NCBI RefSeq assembly: GCF_964204645.1
Contig: NC_134028.1
Location: forward strand, 12,509,263-12,573,262
From: Tubulanus polymorphus
Taxonomy: Eukaryota; Animalia; Nemertea
Length of the DNA stretch: 64,000 nt
Reading direction: 5' to 3'
This document shows, in pieces, positions 7,967 through 36,345 of the stretch. The notes beneath the pieces were generated by a model that had not been told where the DNA came from, did no database searches, and worked only from the letters and a program-made list of their open reading frames with translations. Position 1 is the stretch's first letter, and each line of letters begins with the position of its first letter. Position numbers and translations under genes: made by a program.

Positions 7967-8010
7967 GTAATTCAATTTATTCATTTAGATATTGTAAATT
8001 TTTTCTTTTC

Positions 8011-8056
<46 letters not shown>

Positions 8057-8083
8057 GAAAAGAAAAAATTTACAATATCTAAA

Positions 8084-8158
<75 letters not shown>

Positions 8159-8230
8159 GAAAAGAAAAAATTTACAATATCTAAATGAATAAATTGAATT
8201 ACCTCAAATCTTATATATATATATATAAAT

Positions 8231-11719: not shown

Positions 11720-14700
11720 GCATGCATTGTCTGCTACCGGTGATCCTGTAATCCGGTACCACCTGTTCAGGGTCGGTCAAATGGCGACTTAACCGGTCCT
11801 CCCACCGACCGCAATGTAAGTGACGAGGGTGGCTAGACACCCTGAGGGAATGAAAATAATATCTTTATTAAAGGTGGATGAGCTCTCAGCGAGCCAAAGG
11901 CCATCTAGCAGCTTCTGGAGAGGAATTGGGTGCCGCATCACCCAAAGAAACCAGCATGAACATCAACTCATGCAGAATCATACCGGATCGGACAGGGCCC
12001 GGGTCAACAATGTCCGCACCTGTCATTCGCCAGGATGGAGGTGATAAGTATGCTACTGGTACTCCATATGCTACTAACAACAATCAGACTCACAAAATTG
12101 TCTTTTGGAATTGGAACATGGAATGTCCGTACCGCCACAGCAACAGGCAAGCTTGAAGAACTGGAGTATGAACTGAGATGATACAGTTGGTATGTAATTG
12201 GCTTATCGGAAGCGAGACTTGTTGGACAAGGTGAAATGTTTACAGAAGCAGGCCATAAAGTAGTTTTCAGCGGCCACGAGACAGCAATGGAGTCGCATTC
12301 ATCATCCATAAAGATACTTGCTCTGCAGTCCTGGCAAACCAGCCTATATCAAGACTGGTTTATGTCACTTCATATCAGTGCAAAGCCTTTCAATTTTACG
12401 CTGATCCAGGTCTATGCACCTACATCTGATGCTCCTGATCAACAAACAGATGAGTTCTTCATTACCTAAGAAGTATTGATGAAAAAACCCAAGGCAAGAT
12501 GTACCAGGTACTCATGATAACCGGCGACTGGAACGCAAAAATTGGTCCTGATGCCTATGACAGCTGGATTGGAGTAATTGGAAAACACGGCCTCAGCCAA
12601 ACCTGGGCTTAAGCTCTTAGAATTTGCCAGATTCCACGAGTCCGAAAGCAACATGGCACTCTCGAAATGGTAAAACTCACAATTTCATCGACTATATCCT
12701 AATATCCAAAAGATTTGAAGGCAGCGTGAACCTTGCACGTTCTAGAACGTACCCTGTTGCAGACGTAGACAGTGATCATGACCTAGTTATGACCTCTCTG
12801 AGGATACGCGTCAAAGCACTGCCGAGGATTCCTGGTGGCAGAATATAGTACCACTAAGGATGAAGGATCCTGCTATCTGTGATGCATTCCAAGTCACAAT
12901 CGGAAGCTGTTTCAATGCACTGCTTAAACGAAATCTAGACGATGAATGCCTGCAGAAACAAACAGCAGAAAACCTAAGACTGCTCAAGAATTTTTAGGAA
13001 ACCAATGGAAAGTAAGGCAGTCCTGGGTAACCGCGGAAATGCTTCTGAAATGCCACAATCACAGGCTTGAAGGCAACCCGCTTTTGTTCACAAGATGATG
13101 CTGAAACTTACCGTATGTCGAAATATGAGGTCAAAGTGGAAGTTAAACGAGCCAAACAGAAGTGGATCGAGGATAAATGTAACTCTCAGAAGACAGTATG
13201 GGCAATGACACCACCTACAACATCATTTAGGGACACCAACACAAATACACCTAAAGGCTGGCTTATGTCGACAAGCAACCCTACCAACGCAACTGGGTTT
13301 ATCGCCGATTAGCGGCAACTAGCGGCCTACGAGAGGCCGCCAGTTGCTGCTCTATCGGTTGGACATAAGCCGACTTGCAACGGCAACCCGACGCCTACCG
13401 ACTCGTCGCAAGCCGTATCCGGCTAGTTGCCCATGTTCTACTACGGCCTACGGTAGGCGGACAGTTGCTTTCGATCGCAACCGACATAAGCTCATCTACA
13501 ACGCGACGGAACTGAGCGCAGCAATTCCAGCCAATGAGAGAACGCATATACATAGTACAAATTATTACGGCTAGTTAGTGTCATTAGTATTTAGTCATTA
13601 ACTTTCAAATTCCAAGCAGTTCCATACACAAACCAAACCTTCAGCACGGCAGATGATTGGACTGAAGATGTAGAAACGAAATTGGTAGAATTATGGTGTG
13701 AGTGGCCACCTTTATATGATGTCGCTAGCACATTGTATTCAAACGAGAATCAGAAAGAATAAGATCTTAAAGAAATAGCTTATCTACTGGAATTATACTT
13801 CCCAATTATTCAAAATAATCCAAATCTATTGTCAAAATGCTTATCACGTGATCATCAGTGGTCAGCTCAGTTGCCAGTAATCGTACCGACATAAGCAGGG
13901 AAGCAACTGGGCGGATCTCGTATCTCACTAGTCGGCCTCAGTTGCTGGGAATCGGAGCGCAGTCGACATAAGCTGGGCTGCAATCGCGGTCGCCGGCAGT
14001 TGCGTCGGTAGGAGTCGGTAGGCGTCGCGTCGCTTGTCGACATAAGCCAGCCTTAAAGCCTCTTGTGTCGAAGACAAGGATGGCAGAATTCTAAACAGAC
14101 CAACAGACATTACAGGATGGTGGCATAATTACTGTCAATAGCTCTACAATTACCAGATATCAGCAGACAAGCAGATATTGGAGCACCTAAAGACAGATAC
14201 GCTAGACAGTAATGCTGATGATCCACCGATACTTGAAGACAAGGTAGAAGCAGCAATCAAGAGTCTCAAAACTGGCAAGTCTCCTGGACCTGATAACATC
14301 CCAGCCGAATCACTGCAAGCAGGAGGAAAGTCTATCATTAAGGTTTACACCCGTGTGTGCAACCATATCTTCAGGACAGGAAACTGGCCAGATGACTGGA
14401 CAACTTCGATCGTCATTCTCTTGCCCAAGAAAGGGAGCCTTAGAAAATGCCCGAACTATCACACTATCAGTCTTATTAGTCACCCTAGTAAAACTTCGCT
14501 GAATTGCTTTTGAGGCATCTTCAACCACAAGCCGAGGCACTGCTCGCAGAAGAACAAGGTCGTTTGACGACAGAGCAGATATCCAACCTGATGTATCCAA
14601 GGCTGATGTGTGAAAAATTCATCGAGCTTGGTAAACCAGTTTTTCACACTTTCGTGGACTACAAGAAATGTTTTGATCGAGTTTGGCATGAGGGTCTATG

Positions 14701-15050
14701 CGCAATGATCAGTCACGGTATAACTAATGCCATCAAGGCGCTGTTAAAGGCATCAAAAAGCATAGTTATGGTCGGAAGTGATTTCAGTGATTGTTTCCCT
14801 ACAACAGTCGGTGTATGTCAAGGATGCTTATTATCACCTACACTGTCCAACATTCCTTGAACACATCATATCTCAAGCTCTGATACAAACAGACTTGCCT
14901 GTAAAGCTAGGAGGAAGAGAAATCAGCAACCTTCGTTTTGCAGATGACATTGATCTCTCAACACATCTTTTCTTGGTCAGGCTAACCAAGCAAAGAACCT
15001 AGACCTCCTGAGCAGACGACATGGCATGGACCTGGCATTGACCGTTGAGG
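11720..15050 (+). mobile_element. RTE-clade LINE, degenerate (APE + RT), 3'-truncated
   Basis: APE: IGLSEARL, LIQVYAPTS, TWHSRNGKTHNFIDYIL, DSDHDLV. RT: KSPGPDNIPAE, WPDDW..LPKKG..NYHTISL, FVDYKKCFDRV, GVCQGCLLSP, ISNLRFADDIDL. Many frameshifts. Confidence 0.93.
13255..14053 (+). mobile_element. Non-autonomous PIF/Harbinger element with MADF/Myb-SANT remnant
   Basis: TIR aggctggcttatgtcgacaagc at both ends, TAA TSD. Internal WTEDVETKLVELWCEWPPLYDVASTLYSNENQKE*DLKEIA at 13658-13780. Confidence 0.88.
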
Positions 15051-16623: not shown

Positions 16624-17660
16624 TACCAATATAAATAGACAAATTGTATATCATTCAATATTTAACTTCCCTGGTGGATAGAACAAAGAATTGGGTGATC
16701 CCAATTTCATGTCAGATGTATTTCATGACAGTGCTATGTATCAAGACTATAAGTTAGACCCTGTTGATATTTTCAGCAAAGAACTTTTCTCCGCCTACGA
16801 ATGAGTACTGATGACACCAAGATGGCCGCCAATTGCAATACGCAATAGTCCGCTGCGACTAAAGTCCGAAGTCGGCTAAAACCAATTAAACTTATACTAA
16901 TTATGTGTGTACAGTGTATGGCGCATTCCCTGCGATATCATACGAATAGATAATAGTCAATGCGTGCTTGGAAATTTGTAAACCTGTTATTTATTTTTCA
17001 AACCCATATATTTATGTATTAAAGTTCAGTGTTTAACAAAAAATAACATTTTGTACTGGTATGTGGGTTAGTTAACTATTGAATGAGATCATAATAAGTA
17101 TTTTGATAAAGGATATCCGACTTAAGCATACTCTACTGCATATATCTGGACTTCAAGACAATGACAATAATTTACACTACCCAACCCAACAATATACACT
17201 GTATACAGTTCACAGTTCGAATATCATACACTAAATAAAAATATTCAACTCCTTGTTTTTATATACATATAAATCACAATTACACCAGACCCCAGTTTTA
17301 GATCAAACAAAACCCAGAACCTTTAATCAATAAAAATTCCATACATGTATATCCTGATAAAAGTTACAACCGATTTAATTCATTATTGTTCATTAGTTTC
17401 AATATCAATTCTACATTGTGAATATACAATACCTGTATAGCAGCCATCGCTTAATGATTTCTCTATATAAAAAATTGTAAAAATACAGTTTATATACAAT
17501 TTACCATGAGGAACAAACCGGTGTCATCAAAATATTTCCTTCTTTGAATGAATTCATAAGTCCATTCTAGACTCAAATCTGAACATATTTCAAACCCGCA
17601 TCCTGTGAAACAGAGTATTTAAATCACTGCACTTTTTACCATCCTAATTCGCTTAATAGT

Positions 17661-17783
17661 TCAATATCGACCATGATTGTCTTGTTGATGCTGAGAGCGA
17701 CCATTAGCATGTTGTTGATAACTGTAAGATGATATCCGATAATTTCCGCCATTACGTGTGTAATCACGATGTGAAGACCATTG
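17661..17783 (-). CDS. USP36: USP36/42-like, last coding exon
   Basis: ttattgcag acceptor, phase 0, QWSSHRDYTRNGGNY...HGRY*. Continues NPFQ...RNK, like the USP36 tail NAFQ..RRNFWS. Confidence 0.72.
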   Translation of the reverse strand, partial: QWSSHRDYTRNGGNYRISSYSYQQHANGRSQHQQDNHGRY

Positions 17784-18617
17784 CTGCAATAAGAATTCAA
17801 ATACATATATAGGCCTTTTAATCATCAATTATCAACATTGCCATCAAAAGGATCCATAGATGTGCAATAAGAACAAGAAAAAAAATATCTGGACTCGATG
17901 TCGGTCAGTGTGAGCTTTTCATATACATGCACAGATCAATACACCACATAGCAGCGAGTATATGTGACACGCTAGTATATACGTAACAGGGCACGTGTTC
18001 TTCCGAAATGAATACCTTTTCCAATGTATGGCCACAGAAGCTAAAATACCAGGACCGTAAAAAATCGCCGTTTCGTAAGTAGATCGTTTTGAATCCTAGA
18101 TTTTACCGCTAAAATATTCAGACCTAGACCTATAGTTTGCTGTTAAGTATTTTCAGGTCACAAGAAATTACAATTAATTACAAATTCTATCAAACAGAAA
18201 ACACAGCGCTCATCTTCTGCTATAAAAGTGTAAATAATTATTCATAAAGTGTATATTATGTCAAATGTGCACGCGCCAGCAAGCAGCGTTACAGAAACAC
18301 TACATAGTTGTGTATATTGTACAAATGTGTGTGTAACGGTCTAATCATAGCACTCCGCGCGCACGTGGAGGCCTTATCTGTCAGTGAATGTTCGCTTACA
18401 CTGCAATGTCAATCAAAACAATCACCGGGTATTAAAAGGAAACAATACCTATGGCGGATATGTGAAATAGTTATTTTCACACCAGCAATGAGCATTTGGA
18501 ATTCGCACGTTTACAGCACCTAGTCCAATCAAACGTTTGCTATTTATGACTTTCCCATGAGGAGAGAATCCCACAATGATAATAAAAAGTCCGAAAATGA
18601 AACTTCGAGATAGTAGT

Positions 18618-18664
18618 TTATTTCAACGTTTCGACTATATCCTAATAGTCATCTTCAGGAATAA
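18618..18664 (-). ncRNA. Minimal type I hammerhead ribozyme (inverted pLTR copy)
   Basis: Exact reverse complement of 19546-19592. Confidence 0.75.
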
Positions 18665-18942
18665 TGAGATACTACAGAAATTATGAGATATATATACAAT
18701 CCAGAGACAAAGAGACTAATTCAAGTAATCAGAGATGATACAAACTAAAGGAAAATTAACGTAGAAACAGTTACACGCTAAAATAGATTAAAGGAAAGCA
18801 AACTAAGGGGTGATTATAAACAACAATAGTGAGTATAAATATAAATGAAACTTAAAATCAGTAGTAAAAAGAAAGACAAACTAGGGGGCACTTAAATCCG
18901 ACCTGTTTCTCCTATATATACTTTGTCGCAAACAGGAGAAAC

Positions 18943-19236
18943 ATAGGAGAAACAGGACGGAATCTTAATCAACGCATAAAAGAGCATAAATTAGATGTAA
19001 AAAACTTTAAACCTGAAAGCGGAGTTGCTAGTCATGTTTTTCAGACTTCACACAATTTTGATTTTGCTAATGCTGAATTAGTTTACCCTTGCAGCGATAA
19101 AACTAGAAGACATATTTTGGAATCTGCATTAATTATTGAAAATTCGAACAACGTTGTAAACCTTAACAATGGTTTTTCACCCCATAATAAACTTATATCA
19201 AAATTCCTCTGTAAACTGGTTAAACTCAACACTTGA
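18943..19236 (+). pseudogene. Penelope GIY-YIG endonuclease C-terminal fragment
   Basis: IGETGRNLNQRIKEHK..SGVASHV..HNFDF..RHILESALI..VNLNNG; an inverted piece at 18902-18930 encodes CDKVYIGETG. Confidence 0.9.
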
Positions 19237-19545
19237 TTTCCCCTTTGATTATTTGTTATTTGTTCTCTCATCAATTTCGTCTCTGACTTAACTTGTATTC
19301 ACCTTTGTTTTAATTTAAGTGCCCCCTAGTTTGTCTTTCTTTTTACTACTGATTTTAAGTTTCATTTATATTTATACTCACTATTGTTGTTTATAATCAC
19401 CCCTTAGTTTGCTTTCCTTTAATCTATTTTAGCGTGTAACTGTTTCTACGTTAATTTTCCTTTAGTTTGTATCATCTCTGATTACTTGAATTAGTCTCTT
19501 TGTCTCTGGATTGTATATATATCTCATAATTTCTGTAGTATCTCA

Positions 19546-19592
19546 TTATTCCTGAAGATGACTATTAGGATATAGTCGAAACGTTGAAATAA
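19546..19592 (+). ncRNA. Minimal type I hammerhead ribozyme in Penelope pLTR
   Basis: ttattc-CTGAAGA-t-gactat(taggat)atagtc-GAAAC-GTT-gaaataa: CUGANGA and GAAA cores, stem II, palindromic ACGT stem III. Confidence 0.8.
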
Positions 19593-20544
19593 ACTACTAT
19601 CTCGAAGTTTCATTTTCGGACTTTTTATTATCATTGTGGGATTCTCTCCTCATCGCGTCAACACGGATATTGTGTTCTACCTATCGTGATGATGACTTTC
19701 CCATAATCATTTTAGTAGTGCCGGAATTCGCCGTATATCCCAGAAACAGCCAATCACATTCACTTGTAGAGACGACGCCCCCAATCGAGGTCATTATATC
19801 AAGGTCATTTTATAGGCAAAAGCTAAGAATTTTCCCGCCAAAACAGTTTTTCGTAGAATTTTAACTAAGTTGGCCTTGTCATCGACGGAGGTTCGCCATG
19901 TCTTCAATGGCATCGATTATACGTCGTTTAGGCCGAGAACCAATAAAACATATGCTCACATGAAAAAATGTACAGCGATTTTACATGCATTGTCTCAATG
20001 CCAACATGACAAAGGTAAACCAAAAAGCCTAAGACGTCTCCCCTTGATTGAATCAAAAGTTTTTATGTCAATCTGTCTATTGACACGATCTCCGTAAAGC
20101 GCTATACATGTAATAACACTCGACTGCATGATGATTCATCATGAATACATGGTAATGGGTTTTCCCGACTGACTCAAATAGACACTGTCCACGTTCATGA
20201 TGTGACAATTTCATTTATTTCATACACTGTGTACGAAATTTAATGGACAATCTATTTTCCTAAATTGAACAATTCCCAAGATTGACTTCCCCCTTTCCCA
20301 ATAAAAATGCACTTCTATAAAATTCACTGCTTTTCACGGCCGCCCGGGACCAAACCTGGCAGTTGAATCATTTGCAGTTTCCAAGAAAACTTTAACTAGG
20401 CCACACGTGAAATGCGCTTTTCGTATACATGCACAGATCAATACACCACATGACAGCGAGTATTTGTTTTACATGTGTGAAGCATGAATATATTCAACAG
20501 GGTATGTGTTCTTCTGAAACCAACAATAACTAAATAACTAAATT

Positions 20545-23500
20545 AACAAGGAGCGAAATTCTTAATATGGACTTTCCTAAATTGACATGATAGTGTATGT
20601 TTAATCCAGCATCAAAATTTAACATTGGTACCCTCTGATTAAGCAGAAGAAATGAAAAGGAGTGAAAACTCTATTGGATAAATGATGGGAGAAAACTGAC
20701 TTTTTACAAATTGAAAATAAGGACGGAGGAAACACATCTTTGGTTTGAAGTTTTTGGCAGAATTTCAGAGAATCTGTGCTCATGTAATAAAATAAATTGC
20801 CCATGGGCAAAGTGTGGTTTACCTTGAAAGCTAGTGGTGGTTTGGAATAAGGGCATTGCTTGAAAAATCTTTTTAAAAGTTTCACAAGTTTAAATTGAAT
20901 TTTATCTTTCTTAAAGAATTATTTTGTAAGACCAAAGATATACATTTGTTTACGGTCCACGTCCAAAATTTTGTAGGGTACAGATAGGCGCGGCAGGGAA
21001 ACTATTTTATATTTAAAAAAAAATATGTTTCACAATATGAATAAATATTCAGATAAGGCCATCCCAAAATAATTGTCTGTTTGCTGTAACACCGACTCAA
21101 CTTTGCAGCAGTCGGTATTTAGTCGGTTTTTTTTTTGCAAAATTTTTGGGCAAAAAAAAACAAATTTTTCACCTTTGGGCTATTTTACATGGAAACAATA
21201 TCGCAAAAAAATCATCTACGTTGTGCACGGGAAATTTGTCTAATAGCGTAGATTTCAAGAATTATTCTTAAATTATAACTTCGTCCAGAGCATCATCTCT
21301 GTGTTAAAAATGAAACAGTACATTGAATATGTGCGCGCTTTTACGTTACCGGCTTTAATATAGTCACTATTAGAATGAAGAGCAGCTTATTTGAACACTG
21401 CCAGTTTCCTGGAAAACTTGAACTAGGCCACATGTCAAGGCATGTTTTCACACGATGCACACTTGAATTCAAACATACGTAGCCCATACGTCGGCAGTGG
21501 GTCAGTCGGTTGGCCGTTTTTATCAAAAACAAAATCTACTTCAATGAATCCCAGAAAAAAGTTTTCACTCGGTACCTTTGAAGTCGGGTTGGTCGGGTTA
21601 AACAGACCATTATTTTGGGATGGCCTAAAATTCATATGATGTCACGTATCAGAGGGTGGCTGAATATTGGGTCTTGACAACCTTTTCCAATGTTGGCTGC
21701 GGAAGCTAAGATAGCGGTACAAAAGAAATCGGCTATTAGATGGTTTAAAATCCTGGAATTTACCACTACAATATTCAGACCTCGACAGACCTTATAGTTT
21801 GCTGCTTAGTATTTTCAGGTCACAAGAAATTACAATTTATTACAAATTCTATCGAACAGAAAACACAGCGCTCATCTTCTGCTACGATTATTCAGCCTAT
21901 TTTCATGTCAAACGTGCATGCGTTACAGCATCACCCATAGTAGTGTACTGTACGAGCTTGTGTGAGTTGTGTGGGACTCCGCGCACACGTGGAGGCCTCG
22001 CGTAAGTGAATATTCGCTTACACCTCAATGTCAATCAAAACAATCACCGGGTATTAAAATGAAACAATACCTGTGTGAAATAATTACATCCTCACCAGCA
22101 ATGAGCATTTGAAATTCGTACGAATACGGCACCTAGTCCAATGAAACCCATCCAATCCCATAATAATCCCATATGAATCCCATAATTATTTTAGTAGCGC
22201 CGGAATTTCCCGTACATCCCAAAAACAGCCAATCCCATCCGGTCGTAGAGACGACGCCCCCCAATCGAGGTCATTGCAATTTTATACGCGAGAGCTCAGA
22301 ATTTTCCCGCCAAAAACAGTTTTTCGTAGAATTTTAATTCAGTTGACCAAGTCATCGACGGAGGTTCCCCATGTCTTCAATCGCATCGATTATATGTCCT
22401 TTAAGCCGAGAACCAATGAAACAAATGCTCACACAAAAAAACGTAACGCGATTTTGCATGAATTCGTATCACATCATATCGCTGACAAAGGTAAACAAAA
22501 AAGCCTAAGATGTCCACCATTGATTGAATCAAGAATTTTTTTGAAAATTTGTCTATTGACAAAATCTCCGTGAAGCACTTTGGCAGATTTCACAATAATG
22601 GGTACCAACGAAGTCAAAATTTTTGATGGAGGGATTCTTTTCTTCAGGGTCAGCAAATAAAAACTTGTTTCATGAATATGTGTCATAAATCTCCTCTAAT
22701 ATTTGAAACTTAACAGGTTTGTACGGATATCAATCAAACCAGGTAATATTTTATTTTGAAAAAGTTTTTGACTGCGCTGATCTACTGATCTTCGACGACC
22801 GATTAGAAATGGGGCTTTCCACAAAATAACAAATTTCCCTTCCATTCATCAAAGATACATTTCTTTTCTTAACATCCTAATCTCACAACACAATGCATTA
22901 AATTGAGTATAGAATCACTTTAATCTGAAATAAACGAAAGTTAACAAGCAATATTTGAACGTAACGCACCGCCGTCAAATATCTGTATGTTGAATGATTG
23001 GGTACTACAGCGCGCGTGTATCAGCCAGCTATAATGCTGGTACACTAGATCGATAAACAGTTCACATGCTTGCTTTTAGTGGTGAACTGTGAGGCTCCCT
23101 AGGAGAACACTGTCAAGCAAAAGCACGCGTAAACTTTTCCGAGCGTAACGAATTTTTTGTGAAGTCAAACACTATTACCTTCAACTACATCGATTTACTG
23201 ATAAGTCATATATTGTTGTGCCATATATTGTTGCGCAACGTCATTTGCCCTTTTGATTGACCCTCCAGGAATATGACAGCACGAGCAACATTTAAAGGCC
23301 GAGGAGCAGTATAAAAGCCCAATCAATGTCAAAGATGGCAGTACCCATGAAGCCATAGTGCAGTGGAGAGCACCAACGGTTGAAACTGGAATTCTCCTAT
23401 TTTCTCTGTCAGTTATCCGATTTGGATCCTCCTTTTTGTCAGACATATGTATTAATGTGTAATATATTCATTTCTGCAGTCAAAAATGTGTTTTAGGCCC

Positions 23501-25210
23501 TCCTCTTCGAGAAATAAAGCTTTTTAGTTAGCATTTCCTTCAAAATTTGAATCTTTGAATGACATAGAGTGAGGAGTTATCCAGTGAATTAGTGTAGCTC
23601 AGAGAGCACAGTAACAGTAATATGATACCTATATTCATCAGTATACATAAACAAAACATAGCCTCATTCATAGTACAAAAATTTGGCAACATCAAAACTT
23701 TTTTTATGGTCAATGGATCAGTCTGAAATTTCGTACACTTGCTAAGCTATCTACCATCAAAATTGGATAAAAATTAATGATTTTCAAAACATTTGAGGTG
23801 TCTCTAAAATCGTTAATCTTGGCCCTATCTCTACAAAAATTCATCACTAGCATCATATTTTTATTCCCACTATGACTAGATTAGTTGAAATTAGTTTAGA
23901 ACTTGATATGAAAACTTTTATAAAACTGTGTGTGACCAGCAGTTAATGTTGTGAGCCATCGTCGCTCACTCTAAACATTATAAACAAGATACTGTAGTAA
24001 GTGGGACGGCCGATCTCAAGTGTTTGCCACCCGGTTAACTAGCATCCATACTCCTCGGCCTTTAAACAACAGTTACAGATACGTTGCCGGAAAATTTGAT
24101 TTTTATGACCAAAGTCAAATTATGATTACGTTCGATTGGCTTTATACACACTGGATCTATCTTGCGATATTTTACAATTATGCAGGTTTTGATTGATTTT
24201 TATGGTAAATTGATAAATAATGACATCTTTCCTTCCATCATTCGTGTTTCGTAAGTGATTATCAGGTAAGGGGAACTAAATTACGTGTGGAGTACCTGAT
24301 CAGGAGGAAATTAAACAGTGTATTGAACGTAACAGCGTAACCATTCAGGAGCCTCATTGATTGACTGAGCACTGGCTGACTGCCAGGAATATCACATGTT
24401 GCACACACAGCACAGTGTATACGAATCTAGGATACTGGCGCTTCAAGTCACTGGTTTTATATGAGCGCCGGCCGCAGTTTGTTAACGAACGTAATACTTT
24501 TTTGTTGACTTTTTGTTACGTTCATATACGAGCAGTCCAAAGTTTGCAAGTAGATATTGGTACCAACAACCGTAAAATTTGCCATGTACATGTTGTATTC
24601 AAACACAACTGCATGACAATTCATCATGCATATACCTGGTAGTGGGTTTTCCCCTGTGACTCAAAATAGACACTTAGTCTCAACATTTATGGTGTGACAA
24701 TTCCATTCATTTCATACAGTGTGTACGAAGTTTGTTAGACACTTTCTTTTTTGCAAATTGAAAAATTTCCAAGATTCACTTCCCCCTTTCACAATTTCTG
24801 CCCTTCTATAAAATGCACTGCTTTCACGGCCTGCTGCGATGAACCCTGGCAGTTAGTTGAATCATATGCAAACGAGAGGCGCTCTTTTCATATACAAACA
24901 CAGATCAATACACCACATAGCAGTGAGTGTATGTACCGCGGATGTGTGTGAAGCATGAATATACAAAATAGGGCATGTGTTCTTCCGAAACGAAATGTAG
25001 TTTAACAACAAATAAATAACTAAATTAATAAATAAGCAATGGATTCAATAGGGTTAGAAGTTCAATAGGGTTAGAGATTTAATTACTGCATTGAATGTTT
25101 TGAAAGTTCCGAAGAAAAATTAAGGTTCGTTCAGAAGTTATTTTGCACCAAAGGAAGAAATTTTCATATGCAATAGCAAAATGGACTTCACTGAAGCGAA
25201 AGTCCATAAT
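20545..25210 (-). mobile_element. Helentron/Helitron2-type non-autonomous element, family A (with nested inserts)
   Basis: aacaag..gaaattctt hairpin plus atggactttc at one end; atggacttc..gaaagtccat hairpin at the other (asymmetric subterminal IRs); A/T-run flanks. Partial copy at 17905-20540. Confidence 0.75.
21057..21625. mobile_element. Harbinger-like MITE
   Basis: TIR ggccatcccaaaataat.gtctgttt, TAA TSD; empty site near 53253. Confidence 0.82.
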
Positions 25211-25464
25211 TAATAAGCAATGGATTCCGATAAAATTCAGTACTGTTAGAGATTTAATCACTACATTGAATGTTTTGAAAGTTCCAAAAGAGAAACTAAG
25301 CCTTGTTTGGAAGCTATTTTGCACCAAAGGAAGTAAGTTTCATATGAGATTCTGAAAATAAACTGTCGCATTTCATCATCATCATTATTTTGTTCATTTC
25401 AAATTATTGAAAGACTAGAATGTCGCTGAAACGCCTGAGTGTATGTCGACCTATTTATGAAGGC

Positions 25465-26390
25465 AAGAAATGAAAAATACAAAACGGCTTCTGGCGACCT
25501 TGACCTTCTACCTATACAAGAAATCTAATCAGTCACTCACGGTCTCTAGGGTAACCCGTCCATAAAATTTCACTAAGTTATCTTATACCGTTTATTAATT
25601 TAGAGCCTGGAAATGGAAAATACAAAACAGCTCCCAGTGACCTTTACCTTTAACCCATTAGCACTCAGGAATTGCAGTATGCAGTGTCAATAAATCTTCA
25701 GAAAATTCAAGGTAAAATCAAAGTTCGGTCACGATACCCAATAGCTCATTTGCTATTTATTTCCATGCATTACAAGTTAGTGTTATTTTGTAGTAAATAG
25801 TCAAGGCTTTCATATGATGAAAGATTTGATGAAGTGGGCCACCAAAATCGTGTCCTTTTGGCCCCCTGAAATTCATCCAAACTTACTTGGATCTGAAGTG
25901 ACCGCTCAGATGTGTCATGTTCAAACTGGTGTGTAGTTTATCATAAGCTATTGGGTTCGAATCCCACTATACCAGTTTTTGCGCAGCATACAAAAAAGGT
26001 GCCAGGGCGGATTCGGGCGGCTTGAGGAGAAATAGGCAGGGCGGATACGGGCGGCTTGAGTGCTAATGGGTTAACCTACAGAACCCGAAAAGTAATCACT
26101 TACTCAAGGTCTCTAGGATAACCCATCCAAAAAATGTCACCAATTTATCTTAAACCGTCTGTGAGATAGAGCCCGGAATTGAAAAATAACAGCTTCTAGA
26201 TACCTTGTCCTTTGACCAACAGGACCTGAAATCTAATCAGTTACCCACGGTCCCTAGGATAACCCATCCATAGAATTTCAGTTATCTTAAACCATTTATG
26301 AGTTAGAGCCCGGAAATGAAATTTACAAAATGGCTTCCCGTAACCTTGAGCTAAGACCTACAGGGCCCAAAATCTAATCAGTTACTAACC
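25465..26390 (+). repeat. About 140-bp tandem units (gaccttgacc / aaatctaatcag type)
   Basis: About four diverged units, interrupted by the piggyBac MITE. Confidence 0.7.
25654..26070. mobile_element. piggyBac-type MITE
   Basis: TTAA|CCCATTAGCACTCA...TGAGTGCTAATGGG|TTAA. Confidence 0.88.
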
Positions 26391-26559
26391 TCATATAGTA
26401 CAATACAACTGTTGAATTTGAAGATAAAGGACCAATGGTCCAGTGGCTCGCCAAACTGGTGTGAAGTAAAAATCTATCACGTAGGCTACCGGTATGCAAA
26501 AAAATCATTTCATTGAAAATAAAAAAAGAAAAAAAATATATATAAAAAAGGACTCAATT

Positions 26560-28350
26560 TTGATCAGTGTGAACTTATAATGATAACTGACTTTTAACGA
26601 GAATGAAATCTTCCCAAAAATTGATCATGGGCCTTTTGTCTGAACTAATGTTCATAATTGCAATACATCCCTTGAATGATATAAAACAACTAAAACTATG
26701 AGTGACCATATAAGATACGGTACAAACTTGGTGAGAGCCTGGGTTTCATCAGAGGTTTTTCATTTTTATCATACGGACCAATCAGGACAGCAGCTCCCAA
26801 GTTCTTCAAATTTGAGGCCAGTCAGTCGGTTACTGACAAAACAGTTCATCGACTGACATGATTTTTAATAATTCCACGATAGGATTGCTTTATGTGGCTT
26901 TCATCTTCACTCAGACAAATCGTTGTTACGCGCGACCTATACCGTGGCGTGCGTACTCTATAACTGACACATACACGCAGTGAACACGAGAGTGTAAGGC
27001 TATATTGCCTACGCGACTGTACACGAACGCTCCACTGTGTTGGAAACTGGTGTATTTCATATAGATATATATGTTGATTTATTATATTTCTTTAGAGCTA
27101 TTTCTATAATGTATTCAACATTCAGTAGTGTGATTGTACTGTGTTTGAAGCGTATTAAATCCTGCAATTCATCATTTTGTTACGCGAACTTAAACATTTT
27201 TCGCGCTTATGACCAGCACGGTATTTAAACCTGTGAATTCTTGGCTAGGCGTCAGTCTGGTTCTATATACCCCTTGTACGGCACAGTTATTGTAAGTATT
27301 TATATCAATTTAGATTTGCTGGATTTCAAACTAAAGTTTGGCCTTTTGAATGTTATTTGTCTAAATCTTGTATTTTTTGTACCTTTGTAGCAAACCTCAC
27401 TCACTCACTCCCTTAGTCGTTCTGTCATTGTAAATAAATGAGCGTATTGGAACTGTGAATTTTTGTCGTTGTTTGTTGAGGATTTAGGACCAGGCTGAAC
27501 ACACTGTGCACCAGTTAACAAACTAATACAGATAATCAGGCTCCAAAACGGATCACTAATCAAATAACTTCAATTAATAATGATAAAATAAGTATTACAG
27601 TAGTGTCAATATCAGACTCATGTCTAAAAATTCGAATCTATCAGTGAATCAGCCGTGTGGCGAACACGGAAGTAAATTTCCACATTTTGAAACCACATTT
27701 TCATCAGATATCTTGATGCAACGTTACCCTACGCACGGGATATCAAAACTAGATGAACCATTGAACACATCGCACACAATAAAACGTTATATCATACGCC
27801 TTGAATATCAGTATTCGCGCTAGAAATGATGAATATCAACCTATTCAATCGTGCCACCATTTTGTTTGTAAAATAACGTGCACCAGCTGATCCACCTCGT
27901 TCAATGTTATGACATCATGACGGAAGTCAAAACCGGGTCAACACAAATTTTATAGAACCAAGATTTTGAGGGGTTTCGTCTTTGAAAGCCCATAACTACC
28001 GAACCAAGCGTCAGATCTTGGTGATATAAAGTTCTTCCGACACAAATAGCATTGAATTTTCACATGTGTTATTTTGGACATTCAAAGATGCTGCATAAAA
28101 AAACGTGCTCAAATAAATCGAATTTTTGAATCTTTTTGGTAAATTTCTCAAAAAATATGAAACCCACGGCTTTCAACTTTGTGCACCATAAAGAAAAACC
28201 AATTACGATATATATTTTTGATTAATCCGTTCAATTCGCCCATAAGTAGTGAAATTACAGGCTAATGAAATTGCGTTTGAGTGTGCTAAAAATAGCTTCG
28301 AGCGTAGTGTATTAAGCATACGAATGATTATCGATCGGCAAGACTGTTGA
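26560..28350 (+). repeat. Dispersed repeat family C (about 1.3 kb core)
   Basis: Inverted copy at 49900-51675; direct partial copies at 51690-53075 and 59590-60040. Confidence 0.8.
27038..27501 (+). mobile_element. Solo LTR (BEL/Pao-like)
   Basis: TGTT...AACA termini, 5-bp TSD CACTG, internal TATA-like and AATAAA motifs; single CACTG in the paralog near 52815. Confidence 0.85.
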
Positions 28351-30424
28351 CATAGGCTCTGTCAAAGGGTTTAGGTGCTAGGGCACAGAAACCACTACGG
28401 ACCATTGCGAAGTGAATACAGTATGCCCCCACAACGCGATAAAATCACAATGGACTGTTAATTGTTGGCTATACTATGTTGATGATATCAGCCCTTGGGT
28501 CCGATATGACAAAGATTTTTGCCTATTCTTATTTGTTTATTTACTAAATGTTTAGTCTCATTTCATATATTTAACAAGCAGTCTCCCTATTCAACTTTAC
28601 TATTATATTTCTTTTATTTCCAAAACATAGTAGGGGAGATTACAACAAAGCCCTTTCTACTTCGACATTATTCAGACATGCCAGATTTAAAAAATCTACC
28701 TCAGGGACATATTCAAATTTCTTCAGGGACATTATTAGAACTGTCAGGGACAAAAATATCCAGCCACATTTTCAAGGACATTTACAAGGAGGATCTCAGG
28801 GAAAAAACCTACTAAATTTTACAGTGAAACAATGTCATGATGATCCGAGATATTAGAATATAGGCCTGTTGTTTTTTAAACACAACTTGAATTCCGTTTC
28901 ATAATTAGCTGCTTTGCTTTGATTGACGTGATGCCAGATTGCCCCTAGCTGCTCTACGAGCAATTATCCAAAAAAGCTGTGTCTTTATGAGCTGAAAATT
29001 ACTTATGTTGGGCAATGCAACTTGTTCATTTTGTAATTTGTATCAATTATAAATGAGTTGTTGATACTATTTTACGTCTTCTCGCCTATGTCTGTAGAAT
29101 TTGGAGGACTCTGAACACCAGGCGGAAATAGTCGATTAGCAATTAGCGTGCGGCAAGTTTGATTGACAGCACTACTGATTGTGTCTATGGGAGGCCGAGC
29201 TCTCCTCTTTTATCGTGCGCGAATGCATTTTGTCTCATTTTGTTGAACGAATGACAGCTTATTGGCACACTGCCAGTTTCCTGGAAAACATAAACTAGGC
29301 CACACTCAAGGCACGTTTTCACATGATGCACACTTGATTTCAAACATAGGCCTATGTAGCTCATACACACAGTCTCTCGTGTGGGGTGTGGCATTGCTGT
29401 GGCAACTCAGTTGGATCGATTATGTTAGCTCAAGCGAGCAAGTGTCGGGACCAATGCAGAATTAATACCTGAATGAGGCAATTCTCTCCGGGATTTTTAT
29501 GGGCTATTCATAAAATGTTAACTCCCACTGGTAATTTAGGACTAAATGAAATTTCCGTGACAAATTGCGTCTCTCCGGTACAGCGGGATACAAAATTTAT
29601 AAAACCGGGACTGTCCCGGCGGAACCAGGACGTCAGGGATGTCTAATTATTATATCTTAGGTCTAATTATTGTTTCTTAACTATAATTATCTGCTCATTT
29701 GTTTCCTTATTAATTAATGAATTTTTGCTCAGACAGATAACCCACCAATGGATTAAACAATGACCAGTTTGTCACCTGTCAGCTACCAGTCTGTCACATG
29801 TCAGACTGTTTGTTCTTATCATAACCAATAATATATAGCATGTGATATTCAGAAGAATTGACATACTCACTCAATTTCGTTAAGTCAGCCTTAGGGTGAA
29901 CAAATTCAGACACATACCATGTGTGTCCGGAAGCCTTTGTTGTCTATGTCGAGTAAGCAAGTTCCAGAATAAACTTGAAAAAAGTGAACATTGCTATACC
30001 AGTTCCAGACCCCAAAATTATAACAAGAGGTCGATGGAGGTTGAGACTTTGTCAAGAAAATCTCAAATTCCAGACAAGAACCCGATGGGCCTTGAAGCAT
30101 TGGTAGATTACACAGTATCGAGTAGGGCAGCCAACCTGTGAAAAGTGCTATTGGTAATAGATTGAATTTATTTCTGTTACATCTCATTGAAATATGAAAC
30201 ACAATGTTTAAAAAATATTTAAATCAATCAGTACTGGTAATTAATAAAAAGAACCTTAGTAACACCTTCCATATTTCAGTTTGCATCAAACAAATCAAAT
30301 CATAGAATAGTATAGTATATCAAAGCTAAAATTCATATATAATGGTTGTTCATATTTATATATAGCTTATATTTGTTTAATGTTAAATGTCTCTAATTAT
30401 CGTTTAAATGTCTCTAATTATCGC

Positions 30425-30757
30425 AGTAATAATACCAGAAGTAAAAATGCCAGAGGTAAAAACGCCAGGGGTATACAAATGCCAGAGGTAAAAATGCCAG
30501 AGGAAATAATGCCAGAAGGATAAATTGATTCAATGATTTTAAGAAACAAGTGCATCAAAACTTAAAAACTATTCATCGAATTGTTGCTTTGATGTAATAA
30601 ATGAATTACAGCAAACTAACTTGTCGAAAACTTTTGTTTTTTATTATCATACCTGTTATCATAATTCTTCGCTTATTTTTCCTCATATTTCCTTCTGGCA
30701 TTTCTACCTCTGGAATTTTTACCTATGGTGTGATTTTTACTTCTGGTATTATTACCT
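30425..30757. mobile_element. MITE with tandem 15-bp (aaatgccagaggtaa) inverted arms
   Basis: gtaataataccagaagtaaaaat... / ...atttttacttctggtattattac. Confidence 0.75.
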
Positions 30758-30759
30758 GG

Positions 30760-32330
30760 ATTCGTTAATTGTTGTTTGTCTCCCTGTCATGTCATTACTC
30801 GTCACCTTTATTTTTCTACCATTTTCCGTGTCTCCACCTGCCTTGTAACTCAATGTATATAAATAGTTTGTGTCTAAAATAAAGTCAGTCCAGTTTTGGT
30901 ATTCCAAGCTGATAGTTCAGTCGTTACTTTGCTCTCTTCCGGATTTCCGACAGCGACCATTCTTCGAGAATAGGATCAAGAATAACATTGTTTAAATAGG
31001 AATAAATTCTGAAAATCAGAAAAAGCTACCATGGACATTGTGTTGATAGGCTACCCGTCATCTCTAATCCTGAAAAAATATTGTCCTAAGGTACGTTCGA
31101 TTGATAACAAACTACCTTCTTCTTTTCTATCATCAAGTCAATCGATACACAGAAATAATTTTTGCACCATTTTGAATATAAAAGTGTTTTGTATAAAATA
31201 TATGCAGTGGGGATAACAGACTGTAATTCGTTAGATTATTCCAGACGTACATTTCACGTACAGTTTTATTAGAGGACCGAAGGTCCTGTGCTCTCGACAT
31301 ATTTACATTGTTCATTCTACAACTCTTCTAATTATGCATATCTGTTTGCTTAAGCAACTGCCCTGGGCACTACGGTGAGACTTGACGCCTCGGACAGTGG
31401 TAGGCAGGAACAAATGCGTCAGGTCGATTTGTTCTGATATCAACTTTAGAGTGAAATATGGCCAGTTATCTATGTCTATCACTTTCAAAGAATTTTTCAT
31501 AATAATTGGACCGATAATAATTTTAACAATTTTGAAAATCGTTAAAATTATTGAGTTTATTTCATTCATAATAATTACCCATGGACCAAGAGGTTTATTA
31601 CATCCTTGTGAAGTGCATAGATGAGATATTTGTCGAAGTTCAAAATACCAGCTAACGATGGAGGGATGCACTTAGTAATATACGAGTAGATTCGTTCGCG
31701 GTCAGAAGAATGAACCATGTTAAACTCTATCGGCGTGGTGCGGATCCAAGGACCATACCGCACCAGATTCTTCAAAGAGTAAGATCGATTCCATCGCGAC
31801 ATCGTGTATACAAACTGCTGCAGCCGGGAATCAAACGTCACAACGAGATGCATTCACAATGCTCATTCTCCCCACACGATGCCCATTCAAAGACGGGACC
31901 GCTACGGAGTAACCGCGTCATTGCAAAGAATGACAATGACTTATATCCCAAACAATACTAGTTCGCCTGTTCGGTGTTTTTTCTATTATTTTCTATACGC
32001 AAAGTATTGCGTAAAATTCATCCGAATATTCATGTGCACGTTTTATTCACCACTGGTGCACCAAAAATCAATTTTAGAATGCAAAATATTTTCAAATTAA
32101 TGTTTCTATTTTCATACAATATAGATTTAGAATACAAGTTTGGCAAGGAAAATGTGTTACTAAACAGTCTATCGACGGGAGTCCGTAGCAGGTGTGCGTA
32201 GCTCTGATTGGTTGTTGCAATGCATTGGTAGACCCCGTTAATGAGGAATCCCACAGAATCCAATTGTTGCTACGCAATATGTACGCAGTAAATGAACAAA
32301 AGCATGCCACACTGCCTTACAACTCGGCGT
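30760..32330 (+). mobile_element. LTR-like end plus very decayed Gypsy pol fragments
   Basis: tatataaa, aataaa and ...ataaca near 30988; RNase H-like LDASDSG..WPVIYV (about 31380-31480) and YNIDLEYKFGKENVLLNSLS (about 32115-32175). Confidence 0.45.
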
Positions 32331-33104
32331 TAATTTCGGTCTTACTGTAAAAATTTAAGGCTTTCAAGGATATTGTCTATCTAAAAATCTTCTTAATATT
32401 ATTGTGAGCAACTTCTATCACCATTTAACCCAATATAATGTGAAACAATCTTGAACACAAAGTTGCCAGATCTATTTTTCAGCGTATTTAGCCCTATTAA
32501 TCCGATCTTTCGTAAATTCAATGACTGTAAAAATGGTGTGCTTTGGTTCGCGGTAAACATACATGACACGATGCTGACACGCTCGTAATAGCTCTCTCAT
32601 TCCTTTAGAGCTAAAAATCTATCTAATAAATCTAAGTTCATTGTTCTTAATCTAATCTAATAGTGTGCCATAGCTTTGCTATTCATAAAGCGCACCAAAA
32701 GCTTGTTTCCATAAATTTACGTCACTTCAATTACATATTTTACTAAAAACTTTATTTGCCATACCCATTGCATATACACTATTCCGCACATACAAGCAAA
32801 TGGTGGTACAACACTTGTGGAAATGTGTGACAACAATGATGTCAGTGTAAGTGGGTTTTTCACGGCAAACCTGCACGTGCTGTCTGAAAACCTTACAAGT
32901 CACAGCTTAAGTTATCAAGTATAATCCTTTTGAATTTCTTTCTTGAACTCCAAATCTTTTTGTTTAAAACTGGTTATTGCTACTCTCCAGTTATATAACA
33001 GAATTAAAACTTATGCCCAAAGATTTAAAAACTTACCGGCTGTATTTCAGAATTAAAACTTATGCCTAAAGACTTAAAAAGTGGCAACACTGATGGCATA
33101 GTAC

Positions 33105-36100
33105 AAAAAAAGAAACGAAATTCTTAATATGGACTTTCTTAAATTATTATGAGTGTATGTTTAACCAGCATCAAAATTAAACATAAGTACTCTAGATTAG
33201 AAACTAAAAGCAGAACAAATAAAAAAAAGTGAAAACTATTGGATTGAATTCAAATGATGGGAGAAGACTGACTTTTTACAGATAATTTGATCAAAAATCA
33301 AAAATAAGGACAGAAAATATCAAATAAATTGCCCATGGGCAAAGTGTGGTTTACCTTGAAAGCTAGAGGTTGTTTGGAGTAAGGGCATTGCTTGAAAAAT
33401 CTTTTTAATTCGTGACTTCAAAGATCCACAAGTTTATATTGTATTTTATCTTTCTTAAAGAATTATTTTGTAGTAAAATAAGACCAAAGATATACATTTG
33501 GTTACGGTCCAAGTCCAAAAGTTTGTAGGGTACAGGTAGGCGTGGTAGGGAAATTATTTTAAATTTTCCAAAAAAATATGTTTCACAATATGAAAAAAAT
33601 ATTCAAATAAGGCCTATCCCAAAATAATTGTCTGTTTGCCGTAAACACCGACTCAACATTTCAGGATGAGTCGGTAGGTAAGAAAAAAAATCATCTACGT
33701 TGTGCACGGGAAATTTGTCTAATAGCGTAGATTTCGAGAATTATTCTAAAATTATAACTTCGTCCAGAGCGTCATCTCTGTGTTAAAAATGAAACAGTAC
33801 ATCGAATATGTGCGCGGATTTATGTTAACAGCTTTGATATAGTCACTAGGAGAATGAATGGCAGCTTATTGGAACACTGCCAGTTTCCTGGAAAACTTAA
33901 ATTAGGCCACATTGAGATGGCTTGTTTTCACACGATGCACACTTGAATTCAAACATATATAATACCTAGCTCATACGTAGGCAGTGGGTCGGTCGGCCGT
34001 TTATATCAAAAATAAAATTTATTTCAATGAATCCCAGAAAAAAAGTTTTCACTCGGTACCTTTGAAGTCGGGTCGGTCGGGTTACGGCAAACAGACCATT
34101 AATATGGGATGGCCTAAAATTCATATGATGTATCAGAGGGTGGCTGAATATTGGGTCATGGTAACCTCTTCCAATGTTGGCCGCAGAAGTTAAAATACCG
34201 GTACAGAAGAAATCGGTTATTAGATCGTTTTAAATCCTGGAATTTACGACTACAATATTCAGACCTCGACCTTTACTTTTAGTTTGCTGCTTAATATTTT
34301 CAGTTCACAAGAAATATAATTTATTACAAATTCTATCAAACAGAAAACACAGCGCTCATCTTCTGCTACGAATATTCAGCCTATTTTCATGTCAAGCGCG
34401 CACGCGTTACAACATCACCTTGAGTAATGTATAGTGTATAGTACTGTACGAGCTTGTGTGTGTGTCGTGTAGCACTCTGCACGCACAGGTGGAGGCCTCG
34501 TGTAAGTGAATGTTCGCTTACACTTCAATGTCAATCAAAACAATCACCGGGTATTAAAATGAAACAATACCTATGGCGGATGTGTGAAATAATTACATCC
34601 TCACCAGCAATGAGCATATAAAATTCGTACGTATACGGCACCTAGTCCAATGAAACGTACGCCATTCTATGGCTTTCCCATAATCATTTTAGTAGCGCCG
34701 GAATTCTCCGTATATCCCAAAAACAGCCAATCCCAATTACCAATTTAATATGTAATACAGAGTTATTCTACTATACAACGTCCCCTAGTGACCATATGCA
34801 AAACCCAATAGCCTTGAAACTCACCACAATCATAGAACATGTCCTGAACTACAAGTTTGCAATTGATCATGGTAACAAAATATGCCTAGGTACTCATCTA
34901 ATAAGGATATACTAAGTTATTCTAATATTCAACGCCCTCTGAACATATAGATTAACTAATGTGCTTAAAACTCACCACAATCATAGACGATGTCATGAAC
35001 TACTACTTTGCAATCGATTTCGGTAACAAAATATGCATAGGTACAAATATAACATGGAAATACTAAGTTATTGTATTATTCATCACAAATTACATATATC
35101 CATCACAAATAACAATGAGAAATGGCAAACTAGAAGGAAGCTACAGGACTCAGAATTCGGCCCAATATTTGGGCACTATAAAGGTCATAGGACAGCCATC
35201 CTGAGTCTGATCAACCCAATTTTTCTTATGCTGATGGGCCCTTGGGGGATTCAAATATATCCAAAAGATCCAGGTAATTGATCAAAGCGTCTTCAAAATT
35301 TCCCTCAAAAAGTTCAAAAATGTGTAAAAAGTGCTGATTTTGGCGAACAACAATGGCTGCCAGTCGGCCATCTTGATTCTGACAGGGCCAGTTTTTGGGC
35401 TCAAGATGTGTCTAGGGTAGATACACATGTAACCCAAATATCAAGACATTGCATTGAAGCGTCTTCCAAACTTACCAAAATAACTGGATTCCTTCTACGG
35501 ACGGACGAACGGATGGATGAAAAGTGAACGCAAAAATGTCATTTTTCGAATTATGAATGGAAACGCATAGGTCTACCTATCTTCGGCATGAAGTTCTTGG
35601 CAGAATTTTTGAGAATCCGTGCTCCAAGTAATCAAAAAAGCCAAAGATGTCCCCACTTGATTGAATCAAGAAGTTTTCATGAAAATCTGTCTCTTGATAT
35701 GATCCATCACACACAACTGCAGATGAATTATCATGAATAAACATGGTAGCGGATTTTTCCCACTGACTCAAATAGACACTCGCCACGTTCATGGTGTGAA
35801 GATTTCTATACACTGTGTACGAAGTTTGTTCCAATTTCCAAGTTCCCAATTTTACTGCCCTTCTATAGAATTCACTGATTTTCACGTCCACAAACCCTGG
35901 CTATTGAATCATTTGCAGTTTCCAAGAAAACTTTAACTAGGCCACGCGCGAGGCGCGCTTTTCATATACATGCACAGATCAATACATCACATAGCAGCGA
36001 GTCTGTAATGAGCACGTGTGTGAAGCATGAATATATGTAAAAGGGCACGTGTTCTTCTGAATCGAAATGTAGTTCCATCAACAAATAAATAACTAAATTG

Positions 36101-36276
36101 ATAAATAAGCAACGGATTACGATGAAATTCAATAGGGTTAGAACTTTTATTACTGCATTGAATGTTTAAAAAGTTCTGAAGAGAAACTAAGCCTTGTTTG
36201 GAAGTTATTTTGTACCAAAGGAAGAAAGTTTCATATGCGATAACAAAATGGACTTCGATAAAGCGAAAGTTCATAA
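33105..36276 (-). mobile_element. Helentron-type element, family A (nested MITE and family B piece)
   Basis: Same termini and body as 20545-25210. Confidence 0.72.
33611..34114. mobile_element. Harbinger-like MITE, second copy at the same host position
   Basis: Same TIRs, TAA TSD and flanks as 21057-21625. Confidence 0.8.
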
Positions 36277-36345
36277 TAAATGATACGTTCTCTAAGCATT
36301 ATAGGTTTTGAGATCCGAAAATAAAATTTTTACATTCTTACATAC

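What the first reader, a model, noticed from the sequence alone, without database searches (positions are those of the whole stretch)
18546..19704. Young Penelope insertion places a hammerhead ribozyme and its perfect antisense in the USP36 pre-mRNA
Seen: apparently identical 341-bp inverted arms, each with a minimal hammerhead. The minus-strand copy (18664-18618) is sense to the host transcript, about 0.8 kb before the last coding exon. Established: PLE hammerheads with a palindromic stem III are thought to cleave as dimers. Inference: in either transcription direction the ribozyme is paired with its own antisense in a long hairpin. That could be a self-masking design that spares host genes, and also an ADAR/Dicer substrate that may affect terminal splicing.
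Basis: partly seen in the sequence, partly recalled or inferred. Interest (0 to 1): 0.7.

Follow-up and report, generated by a model that had tools for sequence, protein, structure and literature searches.

The report
Penelope mirror end facing USP36 exon
A young jumping-gene fragment in the last intron of a ribbon worm's USP36 gene has the mirror-image end that most of its sampled sibling copies also have, so it is likely an ordinary insertion footprint and not a ribozyme-masking device; the one open point is that the mirror end carries a predicted promoter aimed at the gene's last exon, next to an unannotated splice seen in one likely RNA data set.

Summary
Observation confirmed: identical 341-bp arms, two minimal hammerheads, a 13-bp target duplication, in the last intron of a USP36-like gene (Tubulanus polymorphus). 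It is a 5'-truncated Penelope/Poseidon-type copy, a layout already published and noted many times by this scan on other DNA.

'Self-masking design' is not supported. 46 of 77 sampled sibling loci are head-to-head, and in 44 of those 46 exactly one arm has the tail, as priming on both target strands would give. Here the element body is antisense to USP36, so the inversion creates the only sense hammerhead. Published minimal hammerheads do not cut as monomers.

Added here: 33 of 89 sibling 5' ends fall within six bases at a TATA(-31)/initiator site at the hammerhead's 5' edge, and 1 of 89 at its cut site. This points to a promoter and uncut templates. The inverted arm holds that promoter, facing USP36's last exon. 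One RNA-like run shows an unannotated GT-AG joint from 18449 to that exon (depth 85.8, against 32.9 for the annotated joint). A link from that exon to the element was not seen.

The parts
18546..18558 (.). Left target-site duplication, 13 nt (last 2 bases shared with the arm)
   Evidence: single copy in empty paralogues at 34669 and 53759
18557..18897 (-). Inverted, tail-less pLTR arm (element positions 2482-2821); sense to USP36
18618..18664 (-). Minimal type I hammerhead, sense to host; predicted cut after 18625; stem I has one bulged A
18665..18696 (-). Predicted core promoter in the inverted arm: TATA box 18696-18689, initiator +1 near 18665, pointing to the last USP36 exon
   Evidence: sequence; pile-up of sibling 5' ends at the equivalent site; activity at this locus inferred
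18897..18942 (-). Junction: second inverted piece (element 2094-2130) plus 9 filler bases repeating nearby element sequence
18943..19236 (+). 5'-truncated end of the element ORF (C-terminal part of the GIY-YIG endonuclease)
   Evidence: (weak alone, E 0.017)
19237..19653 (+). Forward pLTR; 19313-19653 is the partner of the inverted arm; TATA 19514-19521, initiator +1 at 19545
19546..19592 (+). Minimal type I hammerhead, antisense to host
19654..19689 (+). 36-nt Penelope 'tail', on this arm only
19692..19704 (.). Right target-site duplication
18014..20103 (.). Older dispersed repeat of unknown class, split by the insertion (18014-18558 and 19692-20103); three more copies in the window
18447..18479 (-). 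Unannotated splice donor (exon end 18449, GT at 18448-18447) joined to the last USP36 exon in run X1; exon reaches at least 18479, its 5' end is unknown
17069..17783 (-). Last USP36 exon (coding 17783-17661, then 3' UTR to at least about 17069)
17784..36345 (-). Last intron of the USP36-like gene, 18,562 nt
   Evidence: annotated joint seen in runs X1 and X3

Best explanation
This is a recent, 5'-truncated copy of an abundant Penelope/Poseidon-type retrotransposon, and its mirror arm is likely a by-product of insertion rather than a device to mask the ribozyme. Shown: head-to-head layout, one tailed and one tail-less end, 13-nt target duplication, both arms from one source. Inferred: the element's nuclease cut both target strands about 11-15 nt apart, each free end primed reverse transcription at one of two start sites 36 nt apart, and the two cDNAs were joined at their far ends. 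The hammerhead likely cuts rarely or never here: it is a lone dimer-type motif, it is predicted to be paired with its antisense in read-through RNA, and family templates appear uncut. If the insert affects USP36 at all, the likeliest route is the predicted promoter inside the inverted arm, which would start a short RNA that splices from 18449 into the last exon (about 0.4, see novel case).
For: Family: 2857-nt unit, 833-codon frame with RVT_1 and GIY-YIG over cut-off; the window body differs from sibling L037 at 7 of 747 positions; 610 exact copies of a 22-mer from the 3' end. Head-to-head in 46 of 77 short-cut loci; exactly one tail in 44 of those 46, two tails in none. By coordinates alone: 26 of 72 loci head-to-head, 0 tail-to-tail; 20 of 74 and 1 of 74 with another probe. 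Among 37 long loci 22 have a 3' inverted arm, 21 of them starting at element 2818-2824, with duplications of 11-15 nt wherever both ends were held (this set may be biased to inverted copies). Both orientations share the stem I allele in 36 of 36 loci, although alleles are split 97:50. The window arm has 0 differences to its own partner and at least 2 to each of 36 other copies. 5' ends: 33 of 89 at 2711-2716, 1 of 89 at the cut site 2753-2757. Published: same layout, inverted arm shorter by the tail (PMC3846280, PMC8557442); both strands cut and extended, two start sites that bound the tail, uncut RNA as main substrate (PMC11167929); introns cut by a hammerhead still splice (PMC2995048, citing Dye 2006 and a second study).
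Against: Read-through pairing is real in prediction (-704.6 kcal/mol for 1251 nt), so masking can occur as a side effect. I could not test whether inverted copies are enriched in genes (no annotation to hand). PMC3846280 explains such inversions by self-priming on an antisense template, and several long siblings end both arms at nearly the same position, which fits that model too. The X1 joint at 18449 shows the neighbourhood is not silent.
Confidence: 0.8

Rival explanations
1. The inverted arm works as an outward promoter: a short capped RNA starts near 18665, carries the hammerhead unmasked at its 5' end, runs through the flank and splices from 18449 to the last USP36 exon. This adds to the best explanation rather than replacing it.
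For: TATA at -31 and initiator at +1 lie in the arm; sibling 5' ends pile up there; 214 copies of the TATA 26-mer against 610 of a 22-mer past +1. Joint 17783->18449, GT-AG, depth 85.8 in X1; its contig carries the window's letters at 18470, 18475, 18479 (all minus other depth = 85.8). The annotated-joint contig is the only one over 36385, so no branch at the upstream donor is seen. Two element-free copies of the same repeat in this intron keep the GT donor and show no joint among the rows displayed. PMC2377424 shows an internal pLTR promoter in Drosophila and predicts driving of downstream exons.
Against: No X1 contig carries the window's letter at 18515 or 18541, so continuity from the exon to the element is not seen. 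One run only; library type not on record; contig depth is a poor measure of level; 98 of 113 joints were not displayed. X3 shows only the annotated joint (depth 3.9). The protein collection holds one isoform. Whether the animal behind X1 carries the insertion is unknown.
Confidence: 0.4
2. The 18449 exon comes from the older host repeat (own start site or another allele) and has nothing to do with the Penelope copy.
For: The donor lies in the older repeat; the repeat has CCAAT-like motifs (sequence); no contig links it to the element; it is the repeat copy nearest the acceptor.
Against: The two other intronic copies show no joint in the displayed rows; no pyrimidine-rich acceptor lies between 18449 and 18560.
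Confidence: 0.3
3. The T-rich sense arm donates a splice acceptor, making a cassette exon (acceptor in the arm, donor 18449) that would alter or truncate the USP36 C-terminus.
For: Six pyrimidine-rich AG sites in the arm (18880, 18802, 18777, 18744, 18715, 18671); joint at 18449.
Against: No joint from 36346 into the arm among displayed rows; a single unbranched contig covers 36385; the predicted hairpin would bury these acceptors.
Confidence: 0.12
4. One reading: the inversion is a selected self-masking design that shields host pre-mRNA from the ribozyme.
For: Antisense arm is made first in both directions and pairs 47 of 47 ribozyme bases in prediction; head-to-head greatly outnumbers tail-to-tail.
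Against: Here the inversion adds the only sense copy; 26 of 46 inverted loci do not cover the whole hammerhead on both arms; the tail asymmetry ties the layout to the insertion reaction; lone minimal motifs are inactive in vitro (PMC4209133).
Confidence: 0.07
5. The perfect inverted repeat is an assembly artefact.
For: Perfect palindromes can arise in assembly; no listed contig spans the whole insert.
Against: Clean target duplication, single in empty paralogues; tail asymmetry as in 44 of 46 siblings; asymmetric junction.
Confidence: 0.02

Closest known systems
Endonuclease-bearing Penelope-like elements with inverted pLTR and tail (Pen2a_Av of Adineta vaga, PMC3846280; general scheme in PMC8557442)
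   Same: Head-to-head inverted 5' arm, shorter by the tail; target duplication; small palindrome at the junction; TATATATA about 20 bp before an initiator-like site in the pLTR.
   Different: Nemertean host; hundreds of near-identical short copies, which lets ends be counted; duplications 11-15 nt rather than 8-10.
Poseidon of Anolis carolinensis, PAc (PMC11167929)
   Same: RT plus C-terminal GIY-YIG; two reverse-transcription start sites bounding the tail; hammerhead not needed for insertion; uncut template.
   Different: There the ORF starts inside the hammerhead and the tail lies in the ORF; here the first Met lies just past the tail. That work is in vitro; here the signature is genomic (one tail in 44 of 46 pairs).
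Minimal metazoan PLE hammerheads (PMC4209133)
   Same: Type I, long helix II, extra base between 9 and 10.1, G10.1-C11.1, palindromic helix III without loop; opposite-strand pairs 100-700 bp apart already noted.
   Different: U at position 17; a bulged A in helix I in 97 of 147 copies; very low sequence variation, as in D. virilis.
Drosophila virilis Penelope pLTR promoter (PMC2377424)
   Same: Promoter inside the pLTR, predicted to drive downstream exons of host genes.
   Different: That promoter is described as TATA-less and internal; here a TATA box at -31 is predicted and there is a candidate host joint.
Non-LTR retrozymes derived from pLTRs (bioRxiv 10.64898/2026.07.22.740005)
   Same: The family has a 69-nt tandem derivative with the same hammerhead, near chromosome ends.
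   Different: Not part of this locus; 69 nt is within the 51-972 nt range reported.

Membership tests
Endonuclease-bearing Penelope-like element | Single ORF with RT and C-terminal GIY-YIG endonuclease | tested here: met
   Sibling L037, 833 codons: RVT_1 39.5 bits, GIY-YIG 25.5 bits, both over cut-off; window holds the last part only
Endonuclease-bearing Penelope-like element | CCHH motif with two cysteines between GIY and YIG; DKG motif | tested here: met
   GIY..CxxC..YIG at 723-739, two downstream His by eye, DKG at 284 (definitions from PMC8557442 passages)
Endonuclease-bearing Penelope-like element | pLTRs in tandem or inverted layout, 30-40 nt tail at one end, target duplication | tested here: met
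Penelope/Poseidon clade | No Zn-finger in the RT-endonuclease linker (present in Neptune and Nematis) | tested here: met
   Only two scattered Cys between YVDD and the endonuclease
Penelope/Poseidon clade | RT phylogeny groups with Penelope/Poseidon | not tested
   No clade reference set was fetched
Minimal type I PLE hammerhead | CUGANGA core, extra base, helix II with G10.1-C11.1, GAAA, palindromic helix III, UH | tested here: met
   helix II 6 bp; H17 = U
Minimal type I PLE hammerhead | Helix I closing the core | tested here: inconclusive
   6 bp perfect in the sibling allele (-2.1 kcal/mol), bulged in the window allele (+0.1) and absent from its predicted fold
Minimal type I PLE hammerhead | Self-cleavage as dimer or with protein help | not testable with these tools
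   Genomic 5' ends show no pile-up at the cut site, 1 of 89; this is indirect
ADAR/Dicer substrate hairpin | Long duplex possible in the transcript | tested here: met
   341-bp perfect stem predicted in read-through RNA
ADAR/Dicer substrate hairpin | Editing or small RNAs at the locus | not testable with these tools
   Only contigs, multi-copy sequence; the three T>C differences in X1 are letters also found in genomic siblings
Retroelement-driven chimeric transcript | RNA continuous from element start site to host exon | tested here: inconclusive
   Joint 17783->18449 seen; link to the element not seen

The most novel reading that the evidence does not exclude
The mirror arm is a working outward promoter whose start site sits one base before the hammerhead. 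It makes an unmasked, ribozyme-headed chimeric RNA spliced to USP36's last exon at a level like or above the normal joint. More widely, this family's hundreds of short copies map the Penelope start site and show uncut templates and one reverse-transcription start site per target strand in vivo. Each insertion with a long mirror arm would then plant two outward promoters.
Probability: 0.35. Interest if true: 0.55.

Novelty: new member of a known kind. Interest (0 to 1): 0.33.

Why it matters
The layout itself is known and common, so the finding as written is ordinary. Two things add value. First, a young family with hundreds of near-identical copies gives countable genomic support for a poorly understood insertion reaction: paired use of two start sites, templates that begin at the hammerhead's edge, and no trace of ribozyme cutting. 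Second, a pLTR driving a downstream host exon was predicted for Drosophila in 2008; this locus is a concrete candidate that one long-read or 5' RACE experiment would settle. If real, mirror arms matter to hosts as promoters, and the hammerhead in such RNAs is exposed, the opposite of masking.

Tried and rejected
Rfam at gathering score: no match in the window. PDB sequence search with the element protein: none at E 0.01. Run search: no RNA holder listed on record. Insertion polymorphism: raw DNA run X6 gave about 5-fold depth; no empty-site joint among the rows shown (15 of 450, 15 of 113), and reads with the window's rare letters were too few and ambiguous, so undecided. X7 laid nothing. Editing: not callable from contigs of a multi-copy element. 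Element expression: X1 depth over the element is within what copy number times intronic background would give. The bulged A as a private disabling lesion: rejected, it is the major allele (97 of 147). Splicing as cause of the 5'-end pile-up: the nearby AG would give ends at 2708, but they lie at 2712-2715. My first descriptor scan was faulty and found nothing; it was rewritten. Gene-enrichment test of inverted copies: not possible without annotation. Host repeat class: not resolved. Rows dropped before counts: L032 (duplicate of L033) from 38 long loci; L103, L104 (69-nt arrays) and L134, L142 (halves of long pairs) from 81 short loci; 11 of 100 segments cut by locus edges. L128 and L129 share a flank and may be one event. 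Literature searches for a start site at the hammerhead edge (0 papers with all five terms) and for twin priming in these elements (one unrelated review) found nothing in the held library, which lacks most subscription papers. Supplements were not read; those of PMC4209133 and PMC11167929 may hold similar end maps.

Full report
Observation. The arms 18557-18897 and 19313-19653 are 341 nt long and fully complementary. Each holds the same minimal type I hammerhead. A 13-nt duplication bounds the insert, and two empty copies of the surrounding older repeat have the site once. The host protein P0001, labelled Tubulanus polymorphus by its source, has a UCH domain, and its closest longer relative is named USP36-like. 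Its exons map on the minus strand and the insert lies in the last intron, 775 nt before the acceptor.

What the insert is. A search of the own genome scored 40 of 1277 candidates and returned copies 98-99% alike. Sibling L037 gives a 2857-nt unit with an 833-codon frame bearing RT and C-terminal GIY-YIG domains, a DKG motif, the CxxC inside GIY-YIG and no linker Zn-finger. By the features in PMC8557442 (passages read) this is Penelope/Poseidon type; no tree was built. The window copy reads: inverted element 2482-2821, inverted 2094-2130, nine filler bases, forward 2112-2857 with tail. It differs from L037 at 7 of 747 positions.

How the mirror arm arises. From position-ordered match lists on the two largest contigs I fetched the loci. 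46 of 77 are head-to-head, a lower bound because the cuts were short. In 44 of the 46 exactly one arm ends at the tail and the other about 36 nt earlier; none has two tails. Target duplications are 11-15 nt in the long inverted loci where both ends were held. The two orientations share the stem I allele in 36 of 36 loci while the family is split 97:50, so both arms come from one source. An Anolis element cuts and extends both target strands and starts at two sites that bound the tail (PMC11167929, main text read). My inference is one start site per strand, then joining. PMC3846280 (passages) describes the same layout and proposes self-priming instead; my data do not exclude that.

The ribozyme. 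It has the features of PMC4209133 (abstract, results and discussion read): extra base after A9, G10.1-C11.1, palindromic helix III. That paper saw no cleavage by a single motif and low cleavage by dimers, and already noted opposite-strand pairs. The window allele has a bulged A in helix I. Only one sense motif lies in 134 kb spanning the mapped gene, so there is no partner in cis. Among 89 sibling segments with a readable 5' end, 1 ends at the cut site. Templates therefore seem uncut, as found in vitro for the Anolis element. Introns cut by hammerheads still splice in mammalian cells (PMC2995048, passages, second-hand for the original studies).

Masking. In read-through RNA the hairpin is predicted to pair all 47 ribozyme bases. 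But the element body is antisense to USP36, so the inversion supplies the only sense ribozyme. In only 20 of 46 inverted loci do both arms cover the whole motif. Masking is a possible side effect, not a supported design. Enrichment in genes, editing and small RNAs could not be tested.

A promoter instead. The pLTR has a TATA box at 19514 and an initiator with +1 at 19545, 31 nt on and one base before helix I. 33 of 89 sibling 5' ends lie at element 2711-2716, 5.5 per base against under 0.7 in every other bin. Copy counts step up across the site: 214 for the TATA 26-mer, 610 for a 22-mer past it (probes differ in length). The inverted arm contains this site (+1 near 18665), facing the last USP36 exon. 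PMC2377424 (passages) predicted that pLTRs can drive downstream host exons.

RNA evidence. Run X1 behaves like RNA: depth 89.1 on the exon, 2-14 on listed intron pieces, and GT-AG joints; its library type is not on record. It shows the annotated joint 17783->36346 (32.9) and an unannotated one, 17783->18449 (85.8). The second contig carries this locus's letters at three diagnostic places. One contig alone covers 36385, which argues against a cassette. Two element-free copies of the repeat in this intron keep the donor and show no joint in the displayed rows. Against: no X1 contig has the window's letter at 18515 or 18541; X3 shows only the annotated joint at depth 3.9; X4 and X6 show neither; 98 of 113 joints were hidden; one isoform is on record; carrier status is unknown. 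The joined RNA would have no long frame in the USP36 register. I put an element-driven first exon at about 0.4, a host-repeat origin at 0.3 and a cassette at 0.12.

Verdict. A new member of a known kind. The scan's index lists 133 notes with these words in at least 25 genomes and none for this genome. Interest 0.33, carried by the end statistics and the candidate chimeric splice, not by the masking idea.

Noticed in passing
L058:4307-5915; also L103, L104: Tandem arrays of a 69-nt unit made of this family's hammerhead plus a 27-nt linker (23.3 copies, 98% matches). 889 exact linker matches genome-wide; all 100 listed lie within about 1.2 Mb of a contig end. A retrozyme-like derivative in which cis dimers are possible; joints also in runs X1, X2, X3, X6. 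Within the size range of the bioRxiv preprint (parts 1-3 of 5 read).
   Followed up: partly
window 17783->18449: Unannotated GT-AG joint into the last USP36 exon in run X1, deeper than the annotated joint.
   Followed up: partly
window 18014-20103, 21680-22579, 34164-34735, 53329-54102: Unclassified dispersed repeat of about 0.9 kb with several CCAAT-like motifs and a conserved splice donor; all four copies in the same orientation inside USP36 introns.
   Followed up: partly
window 19534-19538 and 19593-19597: Five extra base pairs could extend helix I past a 6-nt bulge, but the 5' strand lies upstream of the predicted start site, so only read-through RNA could form it; an AG acceptor-like site sits in the same strand. 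Seen by eye, not tested.
   Followed up: no
window 7953-8216: Perfect 102-nt inverted repeat built around (AT)n tracts, with an internal duplication; microsatellite-targeted element or assembly slip.
   Followed up: no
window 25648-28351 and 49901-51674: Two inverted copies, about 90% alike, of a 2-3 kb repeat 22-25 kb apart in different USP36 introns; a possible long-range duplex.
   Followed up: no
window 14142-14860: Broken reverse-transcriptase fragment of another retroelement (RVT_1, E 3.4e-8).
   Followed up: no
window 4576-5136 (-) and 3428-3958: 186-codon frame with a basic N-terminus and a central hydrophobic stretch, no Pfam match, in a C-skewed region; unexplained.
   Followed up: no
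L031, L033, L036, L056, L057: Sibling insertions with several scrambled internal pieces at the inversion junction, a sign of repeated template jumps.
   Followed up: no
L032 and L033: Same insertion on a small contig and on a chromosome-size contig; probably a duplicate haplotype piece in the assembly.
   Followed up: no
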